Assembly: GCA_965204615.1 (NCBI GenBank)
Contig: OZ242000.1
Location: 1,281,803-1,345,802, forward strand
Reading direction: 5' to 3'
Length of the DNA: 64,000 bases
Origin: Acidimicrobiia bacterium
GTDB lineage: Bacteria > Actinomycetota > Acidimicrobiia > Spongiisociales > ZC4RG35
Shown: one piece after another, positions 4,589 through 63,503 of the stretch
Numbering within the stretch: the stretch's first letter is position 1
How the letters are laid out: each line of letters opens with the position of its first letter
Translations under genes and position numbers: made by a program
Notes under the pieces: generated by a model
Databases searched by the model: none
What the model saw: the letters and a program-made list of their open reading frames with translations, nothing else
What the model was told of the DNA's origin: nothing

Positions 4589-5617
4589 GTGGTTGACACG
4601 AATCAGACTTCCCAAGCGAACAGGGAACGGTCCTCCGGCGTGCGCTATGCCTTACGCAGGTATCGCCAGCTATGGGCGTTGCTGTTTGCCGTTCTGCTCC
4701 TCTGGACATTCCTGAGTTTTGCCAGCCCGTACTTCATGACGGTGCAGAACCTGACCAACATCGCCCTGCAGAGTTCCGTGGTGGGGATCATGGCGGTCGG
4801 GTTCACCATCTTGCTGATCGGCGGAGAGATCGACCTGGCGATCGGCTCCACCCAGGCGTTGGCGGGGACCATGGCCGCCCTGCTGATCATCCAACGCGAA
4901 CTGCCTATCTGGGCCGGGGTACTGATAGTCCTGGGCATGGGACTGATCGTCGGGAATGTGAACGGGTACTTTTCTCTGTTCACGAGAGTCCCCTCGTTTA
5001 TCGTGACGCTGGCGATGCTGGGAGTACTGCAGGGCCTTGCCTTTGTTATGACCAGCGGACAGACGATCGGCGGATTTCCGGAGGCATTCAAAGTCCTGGG
5101 ACACGGTCGGGTGGGGGTGATTCCATTACCCGTGATCATCTTCTTCTCTGTAACTGTGGTGGTGCAACTGATCCTGAGCCATACGCGATACGGCGTGGAA
5201 CTGTACGCCACCGGTGGCAATCGGGAGGCGGCCGGCCTGGTCGGGATAAGTGTCAGGAGAGTCCTGATGCTGGCCTTTATCGCCAGTTCGATGCTCTGCG
5301 CGCTGGCGGGACTGGTGCTGAGCGCCCGGTTGAACGCCGGCCACGGCTCCTTCGGGTCGGAGTCACTGCTCGATGCGGTGGCCGCGGTGATAATCGGAGG
5401 CACGTCGCTCAACGGCGGCGCCGGCAATACGTTCGGCACTCTCCTGGGGATCATCCTGATCAGCACCATCAAGAACGGCCTGATTCTCCTGGGAGTGGAC
5501 CCGTTCTGGCAGCAGGTGGCGGTCGGCGCCCTGATTCTGGCCGCGGTTCTGGTGGACAAGACAATCAAGGGCGAACTGGCCGTCGGGGACCTGCTGCCCA
5601 GGTTGGGGAAGCGATGA
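4589..5617 (+). CDS. ABC transporter permease (RbsC/branched-sugar permease type)
   Basis: 342-aa hydrophobic multi-TM ORF; GTG start at 4589 (alternative GTG at 4640); stop overlaps next start (ATGA). Confidence 0.8.
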   Translation: MVDTNQTSQANRERSSGVRYALRRYRQLWALLFAVLLLWTFLSFASPYFMTVQNLTNIALQSSVVGIMAVGFTILLIGGEIDLAIGSTQALAGTMAALLIIQRELPIWAGVLIVLGMGLIVGNVNGYFSLFTRVPSFIVTLAMLGVLQGLAFVMTSGQTIGGFPEAFKVLGHGRVGVIPLPVIIFFSVTVVVQLILSHTRYGVELYATGGNREAAGLVGISVRRVLMLAFIASSMLCALAGLVLSARLNAGHGSFGSESLLDAVAAVIIGGTSLNGGAGNTFGTLLGIILISTIKNGLILLGVDPFWQQVAVGALILAAVLVDKTIKGELAVGDLLPRLGKR

Positions 5618-22874: not shown

Positions 22875-23999
22875 AAGGGGCAGGGCTCCTCTCCACAGCT
22901 AGGAAATGTGACAATCCCTTAGCTTGGAGAGAGCCCTACCCAACAACGGGCATTTACCCCCAGGAGGTGGGAACTTTCAGTGATCGAGACTGGGAACTTT
23001 CAGTGATCGCCAACAGCGTGAAGAGGTTCTGCGCATCGGTGTACGTCACTGCAGAGGCTCCAAGCGGCAGGTACTCGGACCAACGGGCCAGCGAGACAAA
23101 GGTGTCCACATAGGGCTGGTCCGTGAACTTGGCAGAGCCGTCAATCAGGGCCGTTCGACCTGCTTCACCATCCCAATAGTTGGGGCCAATGTTCTGGAAC
23201 CCCATGGTGGCGGCTTCCCACAAATCGGCGGTTCCCATACCGAGCGGTACGTAGGAGCCTTCCGCGGCTATCGCTTCCAAGACTTCGAAGAACTCATCTT
23301 CCGTCTGAGGTACCGCAAGACCAAGCTCGTCGAACGCTTCGACATTGTAGATAAAGCCGTGTATGACCGAGGCCATAGGTACACAGAAAGGTGTTGAGCC
23401 ATCATCAGTGATCCAGGCGCTTTGAGCCACTGAGCTGAAGGTCTCGATACCGGGTAGATCATTCAGCGGGGCCAAGTGGCCCTGGTCGAAGAGTCCCAGT
23501 GAGGCATCAAAGGGACGACATGTTATCAGGTCACCGGCAGTGCCTCCCTCCAGCCGACTGGCCAGAGCGGCGTTGTATTCAGTTGGAGGAGAGGGATTGA
23601 ATTCCACGTCGATATTGGGGAACTCCGCTTCGAATGCCGGGATGATCTGGTCATTCCAAATAGCCAAGTCATCATTTCTCCAGCTTTCGATGGTGATGGT
23701 CACCGGCTCATCCGCCGCGGGAGCGGCAGTCGTGGCCGGAGCAGCGGTCGTGGCCGGAGCAGCGGTCGTGGCGGGAGCGGCGGTCGTGGCCGGAGCAGCT
23801 TCTTCTCCGCTGTCTCCACATGCTGCAGCCAACAGCATTATTCCTATCAAAACAGCAATCCGCCTGCCAATTTTCAGCATATGCTCTTCTCCTTTTACTC
23901 TTGACCCCAAGGGGGTCGCTTACATGTGCGAAGCTGGAACTGCTGCGTCAAAGCCAATGCACACACCAAGTTCCCAACTTCTCCGCGGGAGTGGCCACA

Positions 24000-55346: not shown

Positions 55347-56597
55347 TCAACCCCCGGGCATGGGGTCGAAGTCCATGCCCAACTCGGCCTTGCCGAGGTG
55401 TTCTTCCATCTCCGGCGCCTTGAAGATGATGGCGGTCTGCGCCAGCAGGTCTCGGTACAGCCTCTCATACGGCTTGGCCGCCACGATCCCGTGCGCCCCG
55501 GCCAGCCGGAAGGACTCCCGGGCCACGCCCTCGGTCATCCTCCGTACGTGGTAGAGGGCCAACAGGCTGATCCAAGCCCGCTTTTCCTGGGGAAAGTGGG
55601 GATCGGACAGCTTGGCGGCGGTGTCATCCAGCACCGTGGAGGCGGTGCGAACCCAGAAGCTCATCCTCCCGTAGGTGGACTGCGCCCATCCCACGTCGGC
55701 CCGGGAAAGAGCCACCTGGCCCTTGATGGCGACCGCGATCCCGCCCTTGCGCTTGCGAAGGTAATCGGCCAGGTAGTCGAGGATCCGACGGCAATGACCC
55801 ACCTGCATCCCCCCGCTGGAGAGATTGAGCAGGCCGAACGCCATGTGCTGGACTTCCCCTTCGTCGTCGGTGAACGTGGCCTGGGGCTGGTCGAGGTCCC
55901 GCACCATGGCGTACTTGTCGGCAACGAAGGCGTTCTCGATGGTCACCGAATTGGTGGCGGTCCCCCGCAGACCCATCGCGTTCCAGTCGTCATGGATGAT
56001 CATGCCGGGCGTCCCCACCGGAACGAACATCACCAGCAGCTTTCGCCCCACCAACTCTCCCTGCTCGTCCACCACCGAGGCAATGGTCCCCACGTAGGTG
56101 GCGCCGTCGGAGTTGGTGGCGAATCCCACCCGGCCGCCGCCCAGCCATCCCCCGTCCACCCGACGGAACCGGGCGCCCACCTTGGTGACGTCCAACTCAT
56201 CGGAAGGCGCCGAGGCGGCCCCGCAGAACATGGACTGGTTCTCGGCGCAGTCCCGAAGGAGGGCGGCCATGTTCTCGTCCGCGAACGCGTACGGGCCGAT
56301 CAGGTCGAGCGCCGACCAGTGCATGTTGGTGCAGGCGGCCGAGACCGGGTCGCCGTAGGCGATCGCCTCCGCCACCTTGGTGCGGGTGGCGATGTTGTGA
56401 CCGGCCCCTCCGAACTGCGGATGGATTGCCATCGAAGGCACCCCCACAGACTTGAGGGCCGCCATGTTCTCGAAGGGATAGCGCGATTCGCGGTCGTTCC
56501 GGGCGGCTCTGCCGAAGAAGTCCTCCTCGCTAACCACCTTTTGCACAAGGTTTACGTACTCGTGATCAATCACTGAAGGGCTGCCGGTAACACTCAT
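55347..56597 (-). CDS. acyl-CoA dehydrogenase family protein
   Basis: ~416 aa; three-domain ACAD layout with C-terminal …YERLYRDLLAQTAIIFKAPEMEEHLGKAELG; start ATG 56597 or TTG 56621. Confidence 0.7.
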   Translation of the reverse strand: MSVTGSPSVIDHEYVNLVQKVVSEEDFFGRAARNDRESRYPFENMAALKSVGVPSMAIHPQFGGAGHNIATRTKVAEAIAYGDPVSAACTNMHWSALDLIGPYAFADENMAALLRDCAENQSMFCGAASAPSDELDVTKVGARFRRVDGGWLGGGRVGFATNSDGATYVGTIASVVDEQGELVGRKLLVMFVPVGTPGMIIHDDWNAMGLRGTATNSVTIENAFVADKYAMVRDLDQPQATFTDDEGEVQHMAFGLLNLSSGGMQVGHCRRILDYLADYLRKRKGGIAVAIKGQVALSRADVGWAQSTYGRMSFWVRTASTVLDDTAAKLSDPHFPQEKRAWISLLALYHVRRMTEGVARESFRLAGAHGIVAAKPYERLYRDLLAQTAIIFKAPEMEEHLGKAELGMDFDPMPGG

Positions 56598-56741
56598 CCG
56601 GTGGAGATTAGCGGACGGCAAAGGCGGCCGGATCGATGACTGCTCCCCACCCGGGATGTGAAAAACGTCACCCTAAAGGACTTGCAATCCCCCGTTGGGA
56701 TCCGACATGTGACATCCATCAACATGAAAGGACTACATAAA

Positions 56742-57203
56742 ATGTCGGGCATGGAGGTGACGATCAGCCTGTTCGGTTTCTTGGCTCTCACCCAGTTGTT
56801 CACGATCGGCCTGCTGTGGCGAACCAATCTCCACATCCATGCCCGACTCGACGCCGTGGCCGCCGAACTGAGAGCGGAAGTACGCGCCTTAGCCGGCGAA
56901 ATGCGAAACGAATTCCGACGTGTGGACCAACGGCTCGGCAAGATGGAGCACAGGCTCGGTAACGTGGAAAACCGGCTCGACAATGTGGAAACCCGGCTCG
57001 GTAACGTAGAAAACCGGCTCGACAATGTGGAAACCCGGCTCGGTAACGTAGAAAACCGGCTCGGTGACGTGGAGAACCGGCTCGGTGACGTGGAAACCCG
57101 GCTCGATAACGTGGAATACCGCCTCGGTGATGTGGAACAGACAGTCAGCCAGATGGGACAGAGGCTCAGCCGAGTTGAGGAACCCTCCGCCATCAAGGTC
57201 TGA
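56742..57203 (+). CDS. membrane-anchored coiled-coil protein with nine tandem heptads RL(G/D)(N/D)VE(N/T)
   Basis: ATG 56742 with AAAGGA RBS; single N-terminal TM helix (VTISLFGFLALTQLFTIGLLW); AT-richer than surroundings; heptads encoded by 21-bp tandem DNA repeats. Confidence 0.6.
   Translation: MSGMEVTISLFGFLALTQLFTIGLLWRTNLHIHARLDAVAAELRAEVRALAGEMRNEFRRVDQRLGKMEHRLGNVENRLDNVETRLGNVENRLDNVETRLGNVENRLGDVENRLGDVETRLDNVEYRLGDVEQTVSQMGQRLSRVEEPSAIKV
56952..57140 (+). repeat. 9 x 21-bp near-perfect in-frame tandem repeat (CGGCTCGGTAACGTGGAAAAC consensus)
   Basis: Read directly; units differ by 1-4 substitutions. Confidence 0.9.
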
Positions 57204-57221
57204 TTCCCCACCCGACCTTAC

Positions 57222-58523
57222 TCAGGCGAACTGCATCACTTCGGTGGATCCCGCCAGTGCGAGGGTGGACGCCTCGCCGCCGGTCACCACCTGCATGACC
57301 CGGTCGAAATAGCCCGCACCGACCTCCGCCTGGTGTCGCGTGGCCGTGTAGCCATGAACCTCCGAGGCAAACTCCCGGTTCTGAAGGCGGCTGTAGGCAG
57401 CCATTCCTTCAGCGTCGTAGGCTCGGGCCAACTCGAAGGTGTGGTGATTGACCACATGCCATCCGGCCAGTGTGATGAACTGGAACCGGTATCCCATCTC
57501 GGCGAGTTCATCCTGGAATCGGGCGATCTCGCGGTTGCTGAGATGCTGCCTCCAGTTGAACGACGGCGAGCAGTTGTAGGCCAGCAGCTTCCCGGGGTAC
57601 CTGGAGTGGATTGCCTCCGCGAAACGCGCCGCCTCCTCCAGGTCCGGCTCGGAAGTCTCACACCACAGGATGTCGGCGTAGGGCGCGTAGGCCAGGGCCC
57701 GAGCGGTGGCGGCCTCCATGCCGCCGCGCACCGCGTGATACCCCTCGGGGGTTCGCTCGCCGGTGAGAAACGGGTGATCGCGCTCATCGACGTCGCTCAT
57801 CAGCAGATTCGCATCGCGGGCATCGGTCCGGGCAACCAGGACCGTGGGGATGTCCATCACATCGGCCGCCAGGCGGGCGGCGGTCAGGGTGCGGATGAAC
57901 TGGGAGGTGGGCACCAGGACCTTGCCGCCCATGTGGCCGCACTTCTTCTCCGATGCCAACTGGTCCTCGAAGTGGATCCCCGACGCTCCGGCTTCGATCA
58001 TCGACTTGGTCAATTCGTAGCTGTGAATGGGTCCGCCGAAACCGGCCTCCGCGTCCGCCACGATCGGCGCCAACCACCGCCCGTCCCGCTCTCCGTTCAG
58101 GTGGGCGATCTGATCGGCGCGGATCAATGCGCTGTTGATGCGTCTGATCAGATTGGGGACGCTGTTGGAGGGATAGAGACTCTGGTCCGGGTAGGTCTGT
58201 CCGGACAGGTTGGCGTCGGCGGCCACCTGCCAGCCGCTTAGGTATATGGCTTTCAGTCCGGCCTTGACCATCTGCACGGCCTGTGAGCCGGTCAGGGCGC
58301 CGAAGGTGCGAACAGAAGGCTCGGTGTGGAGCAACTTCCAGAGCCGCTCCGCTCCAATTCGGGCGAGGGTGTGTTCGATCCGGAAACTCCCGCGGAGCGC
58401 CAGGACATCCTCAGGCGAGTAGTCCCGCTCGATGCCCTGCCACCGCTCCTCGAGGTCCCACCGGATCCGGAGTTCTCCTGCTACAGCGGAAAACCCGTTG
58501 TGGCCATCAATCGACATGATCAT
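57222..58523 (-). CDS. aceA: isocitrate lyase
   Basis: 433 aa; catalytic KKCGHMGGK motif and full ICL architecture. Confidence 0.9.
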
Positions 58524-58679
58524 CGTCCTCCTTTGGCATTACGGGTTCGGCTGTCCTGGGATGCGCGCCGTCTGCTGTCCGCCTCGTTCGGTTGACGGGT
58601 GGGGGATGTGCAGAGCGTCACAAGACAAGTGTGGGTCAAATCGAGTGATAGGACTAGACCCTAATTTCATATCAGCGCG

Positions 58680-58694
58680 ATAGGGCATAGCTAT
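58680..58694. promoter_or_regulatory. candidate LysR-type T-N11-A box (ATAG-N7-CTAT) in the aceA / LysR divergent region
   Basis: ATAGGGCATAGCTAT palindrome 22 nt upstream of the LysR start. Confidence 0.3.
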
Positions 58695-58716
58695 CATTCA
58701 CAGGGAGAGGCACAGA

Positions 58717-59631
58717 ATGGAACTGACCCAACTCCAATCCTTTCTGGAAGCGGCCAGATCGGGCAGCTTTCGCAGCGCCGCCCGGGCGCTCTATCTGAGC
58801 CAGCCGTCGCTGAGCGGGAGGATCAGGGCGCTGGAGCGGGAGTTGCGGGCGCCGCTCTTCCATCGCCACGGCCGGGGCGTGAGGCTCACCGAAGCCGGCG
58901 AGGCGTTCCGTCCGTTCGTCGAGCAGGCGCTCGAGACACTCGATCTGGGCAGCGAAGCGGTCCGCAACACCCAGGAGTCCCAGAGGCGGACCATCACCAT
59001 CGGCTCGGCGCGGATCATCGGCACCTACATCCTCCCGCCGGTCCTCGAGCGCTTCCAGCACCGCCATCCCCGGGTCTCGGCTCGCATCCGCACCGGTCGC
59101 TCCTCCGACGTGATAGAGATGGTGGCCAACGGTGTGGTGGGCATCGGCCTGTCCAGGGGGATCAACCACCCCGACGTCTTCTCCATGCATCTCTACGACG
59201 AGCCGATCGTGCTGGTCACCTACCCTGACCATCCCTTCGGCGACCGGGGACACGCCCACCTCTCGGAGGTGGCCAGACAGCCCCTGATTCTCTACGATCC
59301 CGGTTCCACCTACTTCCTGCTGATCAACCAGGCCTGCCGTGAGGCGGGGATCGTGCCCCAGATAGAGACGATGCTCGACAACATCGAGGCGACCAAGCGC
59401 ATGGTCGCCCTGGGACTGGGCATCTCTTTTCTGCCCCACAGCGCCATCCTCTCCGAAATCGAGCAGGGAACGCTCCGGCACATCGAGTTGAAGGGAGACC
59501 AGCAGGTCCATCTCCCCACTCATGTCCTGGTACGCCGGGCACAGCACTACAGCGCTCCCCTTCTCGCCTTCCTCAAACTGCTGCGTGAGATCTACGGATG
59601 CGATGTCTCCGAGGTGGTCGGGAGTTCATAG
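58717..59631 (+). CDS. LysR-family transcriptional regulator
   Basis: 304 aa; N-terminal HTH (FRSAARALYLSQPSLSGRIRALE) and LysR substrate-binding domain; divergent from aceA. Confidence 0.85.
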   Translation: MELTQLQSFLEAARSGSFRSAARALYLSQPSLSGRIRALERELRAPLFHRHGRGVRLTEAGEAFRPFVEQALETLDLGSEAVRNTQESQRRTITIGSARIIGTYILPPVLERFQHRHPRVSARIRTGRSSDVIEMVANGVVGIGLSRGINHPDVFSMHLYDEPIVLVTYPDHPFGDRGHAHLSEVARQPLILYDPGSTYFLLINQACREAGIVPQIETMLDNIEATKRMVALGLGISFLPHSAILSEIEQGTLRHIELKGDQQVHLPTHVLVRRAQHYSAPLLAFLKLLREIYGCDVSEVVGSS

Positions 59632-61997: not shown

Positions 61998-63503
61998 CTA
62001 GCTCTGCGGCACCCCGTCAACCACCGGAATCGAATGGCCGATCCACGGAAGGTCGCGCACCTCACAGGTGGGAACCTCGCGTCCGGGCGGGTCGATGTCG
62101 GGAGTGAAAGCGCCTCCGAAGCTCTGATCCACACCGGGGATCACGGCAACGGTGGTCAATCCCAGGGAACCGTCGTCATTGGCGACGATCTGGCGGACGT
62201 AGGAGTCCACGATCGCCTGACGGTTGCTGTCCAGGGAGATCGGACCGTAGGGGCCTTCGACGGTCAAGCCGCCGAGCGCCGCCTGCAGGGCCTGATGATC
62301 ATCGGAGATGTCTCCGCCGACCTGCTCCAGCGCCTGGATGAGCGCCTTGGCGGCCACGAAGTAGTTCACCAGGAATCCGGAGTGGGCCTGCAGGGCTGCG
62401 GGCGTCATGGCTCCACCGGGATCGGGGAAGTCATCGAAGTGACGATCCAGGATGGCGGTGTGCTCGCCAACCGAGTCCAGGGCGAGGTCGGCAGCAGTGC
62501 CGAATCCGCCGACATAGGCGCCGGCCATGCCGGGATCGAACGCTCCGACCGCGAACTCCCAGAACAAGTTACCCATGTGCTGCTCAGGGTTGAGTTCACC
62601 CTTGGCGTCCTCGAAGGCCTTCAGCGAGGGGATGGTTCCGGTTCCGCCGACCACCCAGAAGTACCCGTCGACCTCATCGGGGTCGGGGAGCTGGGCGGCG
62701 AACGACGAATAGTCGGTGGTGTTGAGCGGCGGGAAGACCCGCGAGGTCACATCACCGCCGGCCGCGCAGAACTCGGCGATGAAGCCGGCCGCGGAGGTCC
62801 AGCCGAAGCTGTAGTCGTCCATGACCACCGCCGCGGTGTCCCATCCGAGCACGTTCTTGGCGTAGTCGCCGGTACCCGCGTTCCACTGAGCTCCGTCACC
62901 GTTGTACCGGAAGAAGTTGGGAGCCTGGACGTGCATGGTGGTGTCCAGGGCGCCGGCCGTTCCGTTGATGAAGGTCTGGGTGGGATGGTCCTTGGCGTAG
63001 TTGGCCACCGCGATCGACTCGTCTCCCGAGAGCGGGCCGATCATGATGTCGGCGCCGATTTGCTCCATCAGGCGACGGGTCTCCTCAATGGCCTTGTCGG
63101 CGGTGTCGTCCGCGCAACCGATACCCACCAGCTCGACCGGGACACCGGCCACCGAAGCGCCGGTGAAGCCGTCAGTCGGCTTGTTGGGGTTGGTAACCGT
63201 GGCGCCTGCGAACTCGGCGAACGCCGCTACGACGCCTGCCAGGTCCTGGTCGTGGAAGCCTCCGAAGGCCCCTTCACAGTCCGACAGCACGGCCAGATTG
63301 ATGACCTCGGTGCCCATCGGCTCTTCCTCTTCCATCTCCTCCGCGGGCTCCGGCTCAGGAGCAGCAGTGGTGGGAGCGGCAGTGGTGGGAGCAGCGGTAG
63401 TGGGAGCAGCCTCCTCCTCGTCGCCGCCGCAAGCGGCCGCGACCAGAGCAATGACGGCTGCCAAAATCGCCAGTCGCATTACTTTTGACTTACGAAAAGA
63501 CAT
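61998..63503 (-). CDS. branched-chain amino-acid (Leu/Ile/Val-type) ABC transporter substrate-binding lipoprotein
   Basis: ATG 63503 with AAAGGAGAG RBS; signal peptide plus lipobox (LVAAACG), PT-linker (APTTAAPTTAAPTTAAP), periplasmic-binding-protein type I domain. Confidence 0.85.
   Translation of the reverse strand: MSFRKSKVMRLAILAAVIALVAAACGGDEEEAAPTTAAPTTAAPTTAAPEPEPAEEMEEEEPMGTEVINLAVLSDCEGAFGGFHDQDLAGVVAAFAEFAGATVTNPNKPTDGFTGASVAGVPVELVGIGCADDTADKAIEETRRLMEQIGADIMIGPLSGDESIAVANYAKDHPTQTFINGTAGALDTTMHVQAPNFFRYNGDGAQWNAGTGDYAKNVLGWDTAAVVMDDYSFGWTSAAGFIAEFCAAGGDVTSRVFPPLNTTDYSSFAAQLPDPDEVDGYFWVVGGTGTIPSLKAFEDAKGELNPEQHMGNLFWEFAVGAFDPGMAGAYVGGFGTAADLALDSVGEHTAILDRHFDDFPDPGGAMTPAALQAHSGFLVNYFVAAKALIQALEQVGGDISDDHQALQAALGGLTVEGPYGPISLDSNRQAIVDSYVRQIVANDDGSLGLTTVAVIPGVDQSFGGAFTPDIDPPGREVPTCEVRDLPWIGHSIPVVDGVPQS

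What the first reader, a model, noticed from the sequence alone, without database searches (positions are those of the whole stretch)
56742..57203. Membrane-anchored coiled-coil protein encoded by nine near-perfect 21-bp tandem repeats
One N-terminal TM helix is followed by nine consecutive heptads RL(G/D)(N/D)VE(N/T) forming a continuous coiled coil. The DNA units differ by only 1-4 nt, so the array should be prone to slipped-strand or recombinational gain and loss of 21-bp units, which is in-frame length variation. The 5' part of the gene is markedly AT-richer than the genome (possible foreign origin). Function unknown. Similar low-complexity coiled-coil membrane proteins occur as phage-related or envelope-spacer proteins.
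Basis: seen in the sequence. Interest (0 to 1): 0.55.

Follow-up and report, generated by a model that had tools for sequence, protein, structure and literature searches.

The report
Length-variable membrane-anchored coiled-coil protein
A real, vertically inherited small membrane protein of an Acidimicrobiia-like bacterium has had its coiled-coil stalk roughly doubled by nine extra 21-bp (one-heptad) repeats; this is a clear but ordinary case of repeat-driven length change, and the protein's function is unknown.

Summary
ORF 56742..57203 (+) encodes 153 aa: one N-terminal TM helix, a helical linker, ten 21-bp units and a short tail. Nine of the units are near-identical, and two 42-bp blocks are identical.

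The heptads are canonical: a=L, d=V, e=E and g=R in 10/10 units (d is M in one). AlphaFold2 predicts a single helix over residues 3-145.

The gene is real. The TM codons show only synonymous changes between orthologs. The 205-aa antisense ORF is a shadow that carries stop codons in orthologs.

Orthologs always sit beside the same acyl-CoA-dehydrogenase-like gene in Acidimicrobiia MAGs. They are 85-101 aa long, so the nine units (+63 aa, about 9 nm) are a lineage-specific insertion, in phase.

In a sister clade, a 42-bp (two-heptad) unit at the same site is present or absent among strains whose flanks are at least 99.6% identical. This shows the predicted in-frame instability. The one close relative of this window has the same unit count, plus a 1-nt frameshift.

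The Pfam hits to XhlA and FlaC are inflated by the repeats.

Function remains inferred: an oligomeric stalk that positions a conserved C-terminal EEPSxIKV tail. Interest is modest.

The parts
56742..57203 (+). Protein-coding gene of 153 aa plus stop. An alternative start lies at the second ATG, 56751, which would give 150 aa beginning MEVTISLF.
   Evidence: ORF listing and translation. Orthologs are P0003, P0004, P0126 and P0136. dN/dS is about 0.3 over the first 59 codons. L003 has ATT in place of the first ATG, so the start is ambiguous.
56726..56743 (+). Conserved upstream signals: a Shine-Dalgarno-like GAAAGGA (56726-56732) 9 nt before the first ATG, and a TANNNT element (TAAAAT, 56738-56743) 7 nt before the second ATG.
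   Evidence: Alignment of six orthologous upstream regions. The consensus promoter scan found no sigma-70 site. Function is inferred only.
56757..56819 (+). Transmembrane helix, residues 6-26 (VTISLFGFLALTQLFTIGLLW). It contains polar T, S and Q residues.
   Evidence: Hydropathy maximum. The sequence is invariant in the window, P0003 and P0004, with 6-7 synonymous and 0 non-synonymous differences in the first 26 codons.
56820..56930 (+). Non-repetitive helical linker, residues 27-63 (RTN...ELRAEVRALAGEMRNEFRRVDQ). It is conserved in the family.
   Evidence: Protein alignments A2 and A3. AF2 predicts a helix.
56931..56951 (+). Unit 1, RLGKMEH. This is the ancestral heptad, equivalent to RLTQVEQ in the 87-aa orthologs, and the likely template of the expansion.
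56952..57140 (+). Nine near-identical 21-bp units (63 aa). They form a lineage-specific insertion relative to the 87/90-aa orthologs.
   Evidence: TRF, unit table, and the gap in alignment A2. L001 has the same units.
56973..57056 (+). Two exact 42-bp (14-aa, RLDNVETRLGNVEN) copies, which mark the most recent duplication.
   Evidence: The pairwise difference matrix shows units 3=5 and 4=6 with 0 differences.
57141..57176 (+). Ancestral C-terminal heptads TVSQMGQ and RLSRV, shared with the orthologs.
57177..57200 (+). Conserved, mostly non-helical C-terminal tail EEPSAIKV. The family pattern is E-E/G-x-S/P-x-I-K/Q-V/A.
   Evidence: E146, E147, S149, I151 and V153 are invariant in A2. pLDDT falls to 50-65 and the helix ends at residue 145.
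56594..57211 (-). A 205-aa antisense 'shadow' ORF, not a gene. It is open only because it shares third codon positions with the repeat.
   Evidence: Listed. The same antisense frame has 1 stop in L002, 4 in L007/L008 and 3 in L009, while the + frame stays open.
55347..56621 (-). Divergently transcribed acyl-CoA-dehydrogenase-like gene (PF08028/PF02771). It is the one neighbour conserved in every orthologous locus where the upstream DNA is available and annotated. It is context, not shown to be functionally linked.

Best explanation
The gene encodes a small single-pass membrane protein of an unnamed family that appears restricted to a narrow clade of Acidimicrobiia-like bacteria.

A strongly conserved N-terminal TM helix runs straight into one long alpha-helix. 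Its heptads (a=L, d=V, e=E, g=R) are those of a parallel homo-oligomeric coiled coil. The helix ends in a short conserved tail, EEPSxIKV.

The family's basic form is about 87 aa, with a stalk of about 8 nm. In this lineage one ancestral heptad was amplified into nine further 21-bp units. The amplification most likely arose by replication slippage or unequal recombination, and most recently as a 42-bp double unit. Each unit adds exactly one heptad (about 1 nm), so the coiled-coil register and the tail are preserved while the stalk grows to about 18 nm.

Shown: the anatomy, purifying selection, vertical inheritance, the insertion, and recurrent in-phase gain and loss at the same site in a sister clade.

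Inferred: N-out/C-in topology, meaning a cytoplasmic stalk. Oligomerisation. The functional reading that the protein is a membrane-anchored spacer setting the distance between the membrane and whatever the conserved tail binds.

The confidence of 0.7 applies to the structural and evolutionary core. The spacer function on its own deserves about 0.35.

Real gene on the + strand:
- The first 26 codons (N-terminus and TM helix) show 6-7 synonymous and 0 non-synonymous differences in each comparison among the window, L002 and L003. dN/dS is about 0.3 over 59 codons.
- The antisense frame is broken in L002, L007 and L009.
- Every amino-acid difference between units falls at heptad positions b, c or f. 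None falls at a, d, e or g.

Family and synteny:
- Only P0001, P0003 and P0004 were found in the 5.8-billion-protein collection. Only P0003, P0126 and P0136 were found among the 1.84 billion representatives.
- All of them match the N-terminus.
- All lie between the acyl-CoA-DH-like gene and ICL, or the ICL remnant.

Insertion in heptad multiples:
- The 87, 90, 101 and 153-aa forms differ in the coil by 0, 14 and 63 aa.

Instability shown directly:
- The cluster of at least 90% identity around P0004 has three 101-aa and four 87-aa members.
- The two 42-bp copies are 100% identical in L003.
- One-copy and two-copy alleles are interleaved among loci whose flanks are at least 99.6% identical.
- An architecturally similar protein also differs by one heptad within a 90% cluster: P0133 has 126 aa and P0278 has 133 aa.

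The array is not an artefact of one assembly:
- L001 differs from the window by roughly 1-2% in the adjacent genes, and carries the same ten units in the same order.

Topology:
- Flank charges are consistent across five orthologs.
Against: - No expression, localisation or oligomerisation data exist, so the function is inference.
- A glycine at heptad position b in 7 of 10 units is unusual for a stable coiled coil.
- Within the window's own lineage, the one available relative has the same unit count, so instability of this particular array is not demonstrated.
- Two of the orthologous loci (L001, and L009 from an 11x long-read assembly) carry frameshifts. These could be assembly errors. They could also mean the gene is dispensable.
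- The window and its relatives are probably metagenome assemblies, in which a 210-bp array can be mis-sized.
- Topology rests on the positive-inside rule alone.
Confidence: 0.7

Rival explanations
1. Neutral repeat expansion. The protein has a function carried by the TM helix, linker and tail. The nine extra heptads are a mutational accident that is tolerated only because in-phase heptad insertions do not disturb a coiled coil. Stalk length has no adaptive meaning.
For: The family works with only about three heptads in most lineages. One-copy and two-copy alleles coexist in nearly identical strains with no other linked change. Similar heptad indels occur in an unrelated-context protein, P0133/P0278. 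L001 carries a frameshift in the array.
Against: Amino-acid changes between units avoid positions a, d, e and g, so the array is at least constrained to stay a coiled coil. The array is retained with the same units in a strain that differs by roughly 1-2% in the adjacent genes. Neither point demonstrates selection on length.
Confidence: 0.3
2. Extracytoplasmic stalk (N-in/C-out). The coiled coil projects into the cell envelope and acts as an envelope spacer or surface fibril, and length variation tunes envelope distance or evades phage or host recognition.
For: Repeat-length variation is typical of surface-exposed coiled coils (general knowledge). A conserved hydrophobic C-terminus (IKV) could dock to an envelope partner.
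Against: The N-flank has no positive charge and 1-2 acidic residues in all five orthologs, while R27 and R35 follow the TM helix. There is no signal-peptide n-region and no lipobox. Genuine lipoproteins in the same window show an obvious signal peptide plus Cys.
Confidence: 0.15
3. Phage-derived XhlA-like lysis accessory protein, or another mobile-element cargo of foreign origin.
For: Pfam XhlA scores 39.1 bits against a cut-off of 34.7. Several PHROG families of unknown function hit the coil, for example phrog_12015 at 2.8e-19. The gene's GC is 0.589 against 0.638 for the window.
Against: The hits cover only the repeated coil, XhlA profile positions 2-44 of 67. The unexpanded orthologs score 18-21 bits, and the N-terminal 63 aa hit nothing. 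No relative was found in 2.9 million viral contigs. The neighbours are metabolic genes and are syntenic across lineages down to about 50% protein identity. GC3 is normal.
Confidence: 0.03
4. Not a gene. The repeat is a non-coding or antisense-coded feature, for example the 205-aa minus-strand ORF downstream of ICL, or a DNA-level array with a 21-bp (two helical turns) period.
For: The minus-strand ORF 56594..57211 is open and starts 10 nt after the ICL stop. Apart from the truncated 88-aa P0001, no product matching this gene was on record from the other close-relative contigs that carry an identical or nearly identical acyl-CoA-DH. This suggests gene callers may choose otherwise there.
Against: The antisense frame has stops in L002, L007/8 and L009, while the + frame is conserved. 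The + frame gives a canonical TM helix and perfect heptads. The orthologs lack the array altogether but keep the protein.
Confidence: 0.02

Closest known systems
Variable-number tandem-repeat coiled-coil proteins of bacteria, such as streptococcal M proteins, Borrelia Bdr proteins and trimeric-autotransporter stalks (from general knowledge, not tested here)
   Same: In-frame tandem DNA units encode whole coiled-coil periods. Copy number changes by slippage or recombination, which alters rod length without breaking the fold. Polymorphism among near-identical strains was shown here for the sister clade.
   Different: Those proteins are surface-exposed, have signal peptides or C-terminal anchors, and belong to pathogens. 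This one is a 153-aa protein with an N-terminal TM helix, a probably cytoplasmic coil, no sequence homology to them, and a metabolic chromosomal context in uncultivated Acidimicrobiia.
Braun's lipoprotein Lpp as a coiled-coil 'ruler' of periplasm width (from general knowledge of Lpp-lengthening experiments)
   Same: A short membrane-attached homo-oligomeric coiled coil whose length in heptads sets a physical distance. This is the functional analogy behind the spacer hypothesis.
   Different: Lpp is a lipoprotein in the Gram-negative periplasm. There is no lipobox here, the predicted orientation is opposite, and no partner is known. No homology was detected.
Haemolysin XhlA family (Pfam PF10779) and FlaC_arch (PF05377)
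   Same: The heptad composition is similar (R/K-L-x-x-V/L-E-x). The window protein nominally exceeds both gathering scores, 39.1 against 34.7 and 34.4 against 27.8.
   Different: The score comes from summed repeat stretches. Orthologs with three heptads fall far below the cut-offs (18-21 bits, or no hit), and the TM-plus-linker part matches nothing. There is no phage-lysis or archaellum context.
Bitopic N-terminal-TM plus cytoplasmic coiled-coil proteins, such as E. coli YhcB/ZapG (DUF1043), PspB and ATP-synthase subunit b (architecture recalled from general knowledge)
   Same: A short N-terminus, one TM helix and a long cytoplasmic helix that oligomerises. Subunit b, at roughly 150-160 aa, is nearly the same size and shape as this 153-aa protein.
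   Different: None of these families reached the best-25 lists for this protein. The family's basic 87-aa form is too short to be a stator stalk. The gene is not in an atp, psp or division cluster.
Unnamed actinobacterial proteins with an N-terminal TM helix and R-[FLV]-x-x-[VM]-[DE]-x heptad arrays: P0133/P0278, P0263 (Microbacterium sp. XT11, WP_157540882.1), P0265 and P0192
   Same: The same architecture, including an 'ELRT[DE]...F.R[VL]D.R[LF]' linker just before the array and, in P0133, a ...LE..EP... ending. P0133 and P0278 differ by exactly one heptad. Pairwise BLASTP gives about 30% identity at E about 1e-9.
   Different: The TM sequences are not alike and the genomic contexts are unrelated: a PQQ dehydrogenase and an ABC transporter. 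The similarity lies in biased coiled-coil sequence, so homology and convergence cannot be told apart.

Membership tests
XhlA (PF10779) | The whole family, not just one repeat-rich member, scores above the Pfam gathering threshold over most of the 67-position profile. | tested here: not met
   The window protein scores 39.1 bits (GA 34.7), but over two stretches that cover profile positions 2-44 only. Orthologs P0003 and P0004 score 18.3 and 21.1 bits. P0126 and the N-terminal 63 aa give no hit.
XhlA (PF10779) | Location in a prophage or phage lysis cassette next to holin and endolysin genes. | tested here: not met
   The neighbours are an acyl-CoA-DH-like gene, isocitrate lyase, LysR, an SDR and ABC transporter genes in every locus. 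No relatives were found in viral contigs.
FlaC_arch (PF05377) and DUF7310 (PF23991) | A score above the gathering threshold that is reproducible in orthologs, plus an archaeal (archaellum or haloarchaeal) context. | tested here: not met
   FlaC_arch scores 34.4 against 27.8 only in the expanded protein. DUF7310 scores 39.1, below its cut-off of 40. The orthologs are below threshold or absent. The context is bacterial.
Repeat-mediated length-variable (VNTR) coiled-coil protein | Tandem DNA units whose length is a multiple of 3 and equals a whole structural period. | tested here: met
   21 bp equals one heptad. Positions a, d, e and g are invariant over ten units.
Repeat-mediated length-variable (VNTR) coiled-coil protein | Copy number differs between closely related strains. 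| tested here: inconclusive
   Met in the sister clade: one or two 42-bp units among loci with at least 99.6% identical flanks. Not observed for the window's own array: its single relative L001 has the same ten units. Other contigs of the lineage exist (P0279, P0320-P0324) but could not be fetched.
Conserved family of this protein (unnamed; window, P0001, P0003, P0004 cluster, P0126, P0136) | N-terminal M-E-V/A-T-x-S-L-F/L-G-F TM helix, an ELR.E linker, a C-terminal E-E/G-x-S/P-x-I-K/Q-V/A tail, and a position next to the divergent PF08028 gene. | tested here: met
   Alignments A2 and A3. Synteny.
Parallel homo-oligomeric coiled coil | Self-association of the helix, with a defined oligomer number and orientation. 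| not testable with these tools
   Only a single-chain AF2 model was possible; it gives one straight helix with pLDDT 92.7. The a=L, d=V pattern and the g=R/e=E pairs are compatible with a parallel trimer or tetramer, going by general coiled-coil rules recalled from the GCN4 core-variant work.
N-out/C-in bitopic membrane protein | C-terminal domain in the cytoplasm. | not testable with these tools
   Only the positive-inside rule could be applied. The N-flank has 0 K/R and the C-flank has 1-3 R in five orthologs.

The most novel reading that the evidence does not exclude
The stalk length of this membrane protein is a heritable, rapidly switchable trait, making the gene a contingency locus in uncultivated and apparently host-associated Acidimicrobiia. 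Independent heptad amplifications at the same codon position in two lineages (9 x 7 aa here, 1-2 x 14 aa in the sister clade), together with interleaved alleles in near-clonal strains, would then reflect selection for different membrane-to-partner distances. The conserved C-terminal EEPSxIKV peptide would act as the docking element. This would be a natural, tunable 'molecular ruler' on the cytoplasmic face of the membrane.
Probability: 0.12. Interest if true: 0.55.

Novelty: new member of a known kind. Interest (0 to 1): 0.3.

Why it matters
If the length differences matter, the family would be a small natural example of a coiled-coil ruler whose length is set by a hypermutable repeat. It occurs in uncultivated bacteria, where such contingency loci are hardly documented.

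Two practical lessons also follow:
- Repeat-rich coiled coils push generic Pfam models (XhlA, FlaC_arch, MscS_porin) over their thresholds. Such proteins can therefore be mis-named.
- The repeat keeps an antisense shadow ORF of 205 aa open. Gene callers may prefer that ORF, which could explain why no full-length product of this gene was on record for the closest relatives.

Otherwise this is an ordinary hypothetical membrane protein.

Tried and rejected
- **Foreign origin.** Rejected. GC3 is 0.72 against 0.79 +/- 0.08, the low GC sits in codon position 2, and synteny is conserved.
- **Phage link.** The viral-contig scan found no relative. PHROG hits are confined to the coil and mostly of unknown function.
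- **Pfam and NCBIfam assignment.** All hits are generic coiled-coil matches. The unexpanded orthologs and the N-terminal 63 aa give nothing above threshold.
- **PDB profile search.** It returned only generic coiled coils, such as reovirus sigma-1 and designed coils. No fold search was run, because a single long helix gives meaningless matches.
- **More strains of the window's lineage.**
  - Both metagenome scans (peptide patterns and a degenerate DNA pattern) found nothing.
  - The genome scan found only the sister-clade representative L006.
  - An exact look-up of the 153-aa product found nothing.
  - A look-up of the identical acyl-CoA-DH P0279 also found nothing, which exhausted the look-ups.
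- **Elevated divergence in the array.** Against L001 the array shows 24 differences per kb, compared with 7-17 per kb in adjacent genes. That is only 5 SNPs, so it is not significant.
- **Functional link to isocitrate lyase.** Rejected. The sister clade has deleted ICL and LysR but kept the small gene.
- **Consistent context for look-alike TM-plus-heptad proteins.** None was found.
- **Literature.** Searches for comparable proteins and for XhlA gave nothing specific.
- **Promoter and terminator consensus scan.** No sites were found.
- **Rfam and tRNA scans of the window.** No hits.

Full report
**Observation**

The ORF at 56742..57203 (+) exists exactly as described and encodes 153 aa. Tandem Repeats Finder reports one array at 56931..57137 with period 21, 9.9 copies and score 239. 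It is much the strongest array in the window.

In codon register there are ten units. Unit 1 is RLGKMEH. Units 2-10 are RLGNVEN, RLDNVET, RLGNVEN, RLDNVET, RLGNVEN, RLGDVEN, RLGDVET, RLDNVEY and RLGDVEQ. Units 2-9 differ from the consensus by 1-4 nt.

Units 3 and 5 are identical, as are units 4 and 6. So 56973-57014 and 57015-57056 form an exact 42-bp duplication, which is the youngest event in the array.

The heptad positions across the ten units are a=L (10/10), d=V (9/10), e=E (10/10) and g=R (10/10). All amino-acid variation falls at positions b, c and f. Residues 6-24 form the hydropathy maximum. AlphaFold2 models one uninterrupted helix over residues 3-145 with mean pLDDT 92.7, followed by a low-confidence eight-residue tail.

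**Is it a gene, and on which strand?**

The array also keeps a 205-aa antisense ORF open (56594..57211). That frame shares third codon positions with the + frame, so GC3 cannot separate the two.

Orthologs settle the question. The + frame is conserved in L002, L003/L004, L006 and L007/L008. The antisense frame carries 1 stop in L002, 4 in L007/L008 and 3 in L009.

In each comparison among the window, L002 and L003, the first 26 codons (N-terminus and TM helix) show 6-7 synonymous and no non-synonymous differences. dN/dS over the first 59 codons is about 0.3.

The start codon is ambiguous. A GAAAGGA lies 9 nt before the first ATG (56742). However, L003 has ATT there, and every ortholog has a TANNNT element 7 nt before the second ATG (56751). 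Either way the N-terminus is short and acidic.

**Family and context**

The full-length search was swamped by unrelated RLxxVE coiled coils. Only a few proteins share the TM helix and linker:

| Protein | Length | Notes |
|---|---|---|
| P0001 | 88 aa | 97% identical, frameshifted |
| P0003 | 90 aa | |
| P0004 cluster | 101 or 87 aa | annotated as Acidimicrobiia MAGs |
| P0126 | 85 aa | |
| P0136 | 80 aa as called | about 91 aa once a frameshift in L009 is allowed for |

All of them lie in the same chromosomal locus: cyclase, CoA-transferase, a divergent acyl-CoA-DH-like gene, the small gene, a convergent isocitrate lyase, LysR, an SDR and ABC transporter genes.

In the sister clade ICL and LysR have been cleanly deleted. 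Only their last 39 and 35 codons remain, yet the small gene is kept. This argues against a functional tie to ICL.

Nothing supports foreign or phage origin:
- GC3 is 0.72 against 0.79 +/- 0.08 for the window's ORFs.
- The GC deficit sits in codon position 2.
- No relative was found in the viral contigs.

The above-threshold Pfam hits (XhlA, FlaC_arch, MscS_porin) arise from summed repeat stretches. They disappear in the unexpanded orthologs and in the N-terminal 63 aa.

**The array is an insertion, and the site is unstable**

Alignment shows invariant N-terminal (MEVTISLFGFLALTQLFTIGLLWRTN...) and C-terminal (...QRLSRxEExSxIKV) parts. All the length difference is confined to one point in the coil.

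The coil length in the 87/90-aa, 101-aa and 153-aa forms differs by 0, 14 and 63 aa, always in multiples of seven. Unit 1 and the two heptads after the array correspond to the three ancestral heptads. Units 2-10 are therefore the lineage-specific addition: 63 aa, or about 9.4 nm of helix, taking the stalk from about 8.5 nm to about 17.8 nm.

In the sister clade the 14-aa unit QRLTQVEQKVASMD is present once or twice within a single 90% identity cluster. The two 42-bp copies are 100% identical in DNA.

Across 17 loci whose 2.4 kb of flanks differ by only 0-4 per 1000, the one-copy and two-copy alleles are interleaved. L022 (2 copies) and L025 (1 copy) have identical flanks, and so do L024 (2) and L026 (1). 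This requires either recurrent gain and loss or recombination.

For the window's own array, only one relative was retrievable. L001 differs from the window by roughly 1-2% in the adjacent genes. It has the same ten units in the same order, five SNPs in the array (one converts unit 7 into a copy of unit 8) and a 1-nt deletion that truncates the protein. Whether that deletion is real or an assembly error cannot be decided here.

Further contigs of this lineage exist, but could not be fetched.

**Mechanism**

These points are shown:
- a conserved bitopic membrane protein under purifying selection;
- a continuous heptad helix;
- an in-phase repeat insertion;
- recurrent unit gain and loss at this site.

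These points are inferred:
- **Topology.** In all five orthologs the N-flank has no K or R and has 1-2 acidic residues, while R27 and R35 follow the TM helix. By the positive-inside rule this suggests N-out/C-in, that is a cytoplasmic stalk.
- **Oligomerisation.** The a=L, d=V core with g=R/e=E pairs, together with polar T, S and Q residues in an unusually conserved TM helix, suggests a parallel homo-oligomer.
- **Function.** I therefore read the protein as a membrane-anchored spacer holding the conserved EEPSxIKV tail at a set distance from the membrane. Each 21-bp unit would add about 1 nm.

The main rival is that the extra heptads are merely tolerated and have no adaptive meaning. An extracytoplasmic stalk is less likely, and phage or non-coding readings are effectively excluded.

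**Comparison and novelty**

In mechanism this is the well-known class of tandem-repeat-driven length variation in coiled-coil proteins. In architecture it resembles N-terminal-TM plus cytoplasmic-coil proteins such as YhcB, PspB and ATP-synthase subunit b. No membership in any named family could be shown.

Look-alike actinobacterial proteins share the layout, and P0133/P0278 even show a one-heptad polymorphism. Their contexts are unrelated, though, and homology cannot be established.

The finding is best described as a new member of a known kind. It is a tidy natural example with unknown function and modest interest.

Noticed in passing
window 23720-23799 (ORF 22954..23910, -) and 63358-63410 (ORF 61998..63503, -): There are two other in-frame tandem arrays, 18 bp x 4.4 and 15 bp x 3.5. 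They encode (APATTA)n and (APTTA)n linkers directly after lipoprotein-type signal peptides (...AAACG...) of putative solute-binding proteins. The units are similar in the two genes.
   Followed up: partly
L003 2466-2720, L013 4265-4530 (sister-clade loci), compared with window 57222-59631: The sister clade has a clean deletion of isocitrate lyase and its LysR-type neighbour. Only the last 39 codons of ICL and the last 35 codons of LysR remain, fused tail to tail. The flanking genes are intact.
   Followed up: yes
window 56710 (upstream intergenic region): The window lacks 8 bp that are present in L001 (TGTAGGAC), and in slightly different form in L002 and L003. The site lies in the otherwise conserved region between the divergent acyl-CoA-DH-like gene and the small gene.
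   Followed up: no
window 56738-56753 and the orthologous positions in L001-L009: A TANNNT element (TAAAAT, TATAAT or TAACAT) is conserved exactly 7 nt upstream of the second ATG (56751), and L003 has ATT instead of the first ATG. This is compatible with a leaderless transcript starting at MEVTISLF.
   Followed up: partly
L001 6229 (the position corresponding to window 56968): The close relative has a 1-nt deletion in unit 2 of the array (A4 to A3). Its gene is therefore called as a truncated 88-aa protein (P0001), while the downstream frame remains fully open. It is either a very recent inactivation or an assembly error.
   Followed up: partly
L009 5001-5300: The distant ortholog P0136 also needs a +1 frame change to reach the conserved ...RLEERPDIKA ending. 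The contig is an 11x long-read assembly, so a sequencing error is likely.
   Followed up: no
window 56594-57211 (-): The 205-aa antisense shadow ORF begins 10 nt after the ICL stop, so it could be mis-annotated as an ICL-linked gene. Apart from L001's truncated 88-aa P0001, no product matching the + strand gene was on record from the closest relatives, although they carry an identical or nearly identical neighbouring acyl-CoA-DH.
   Followed up: partly
P0133 / P0278 (L010-L012, gene at 5001-5402): An architecturally similar TM-plus-(R[LV]GQVEQ)n protein sits next to a PQQ-dependent dehydrogenase. It differs by exactly one heptad between members of one 90% identity cluster.
   Followed up: partly
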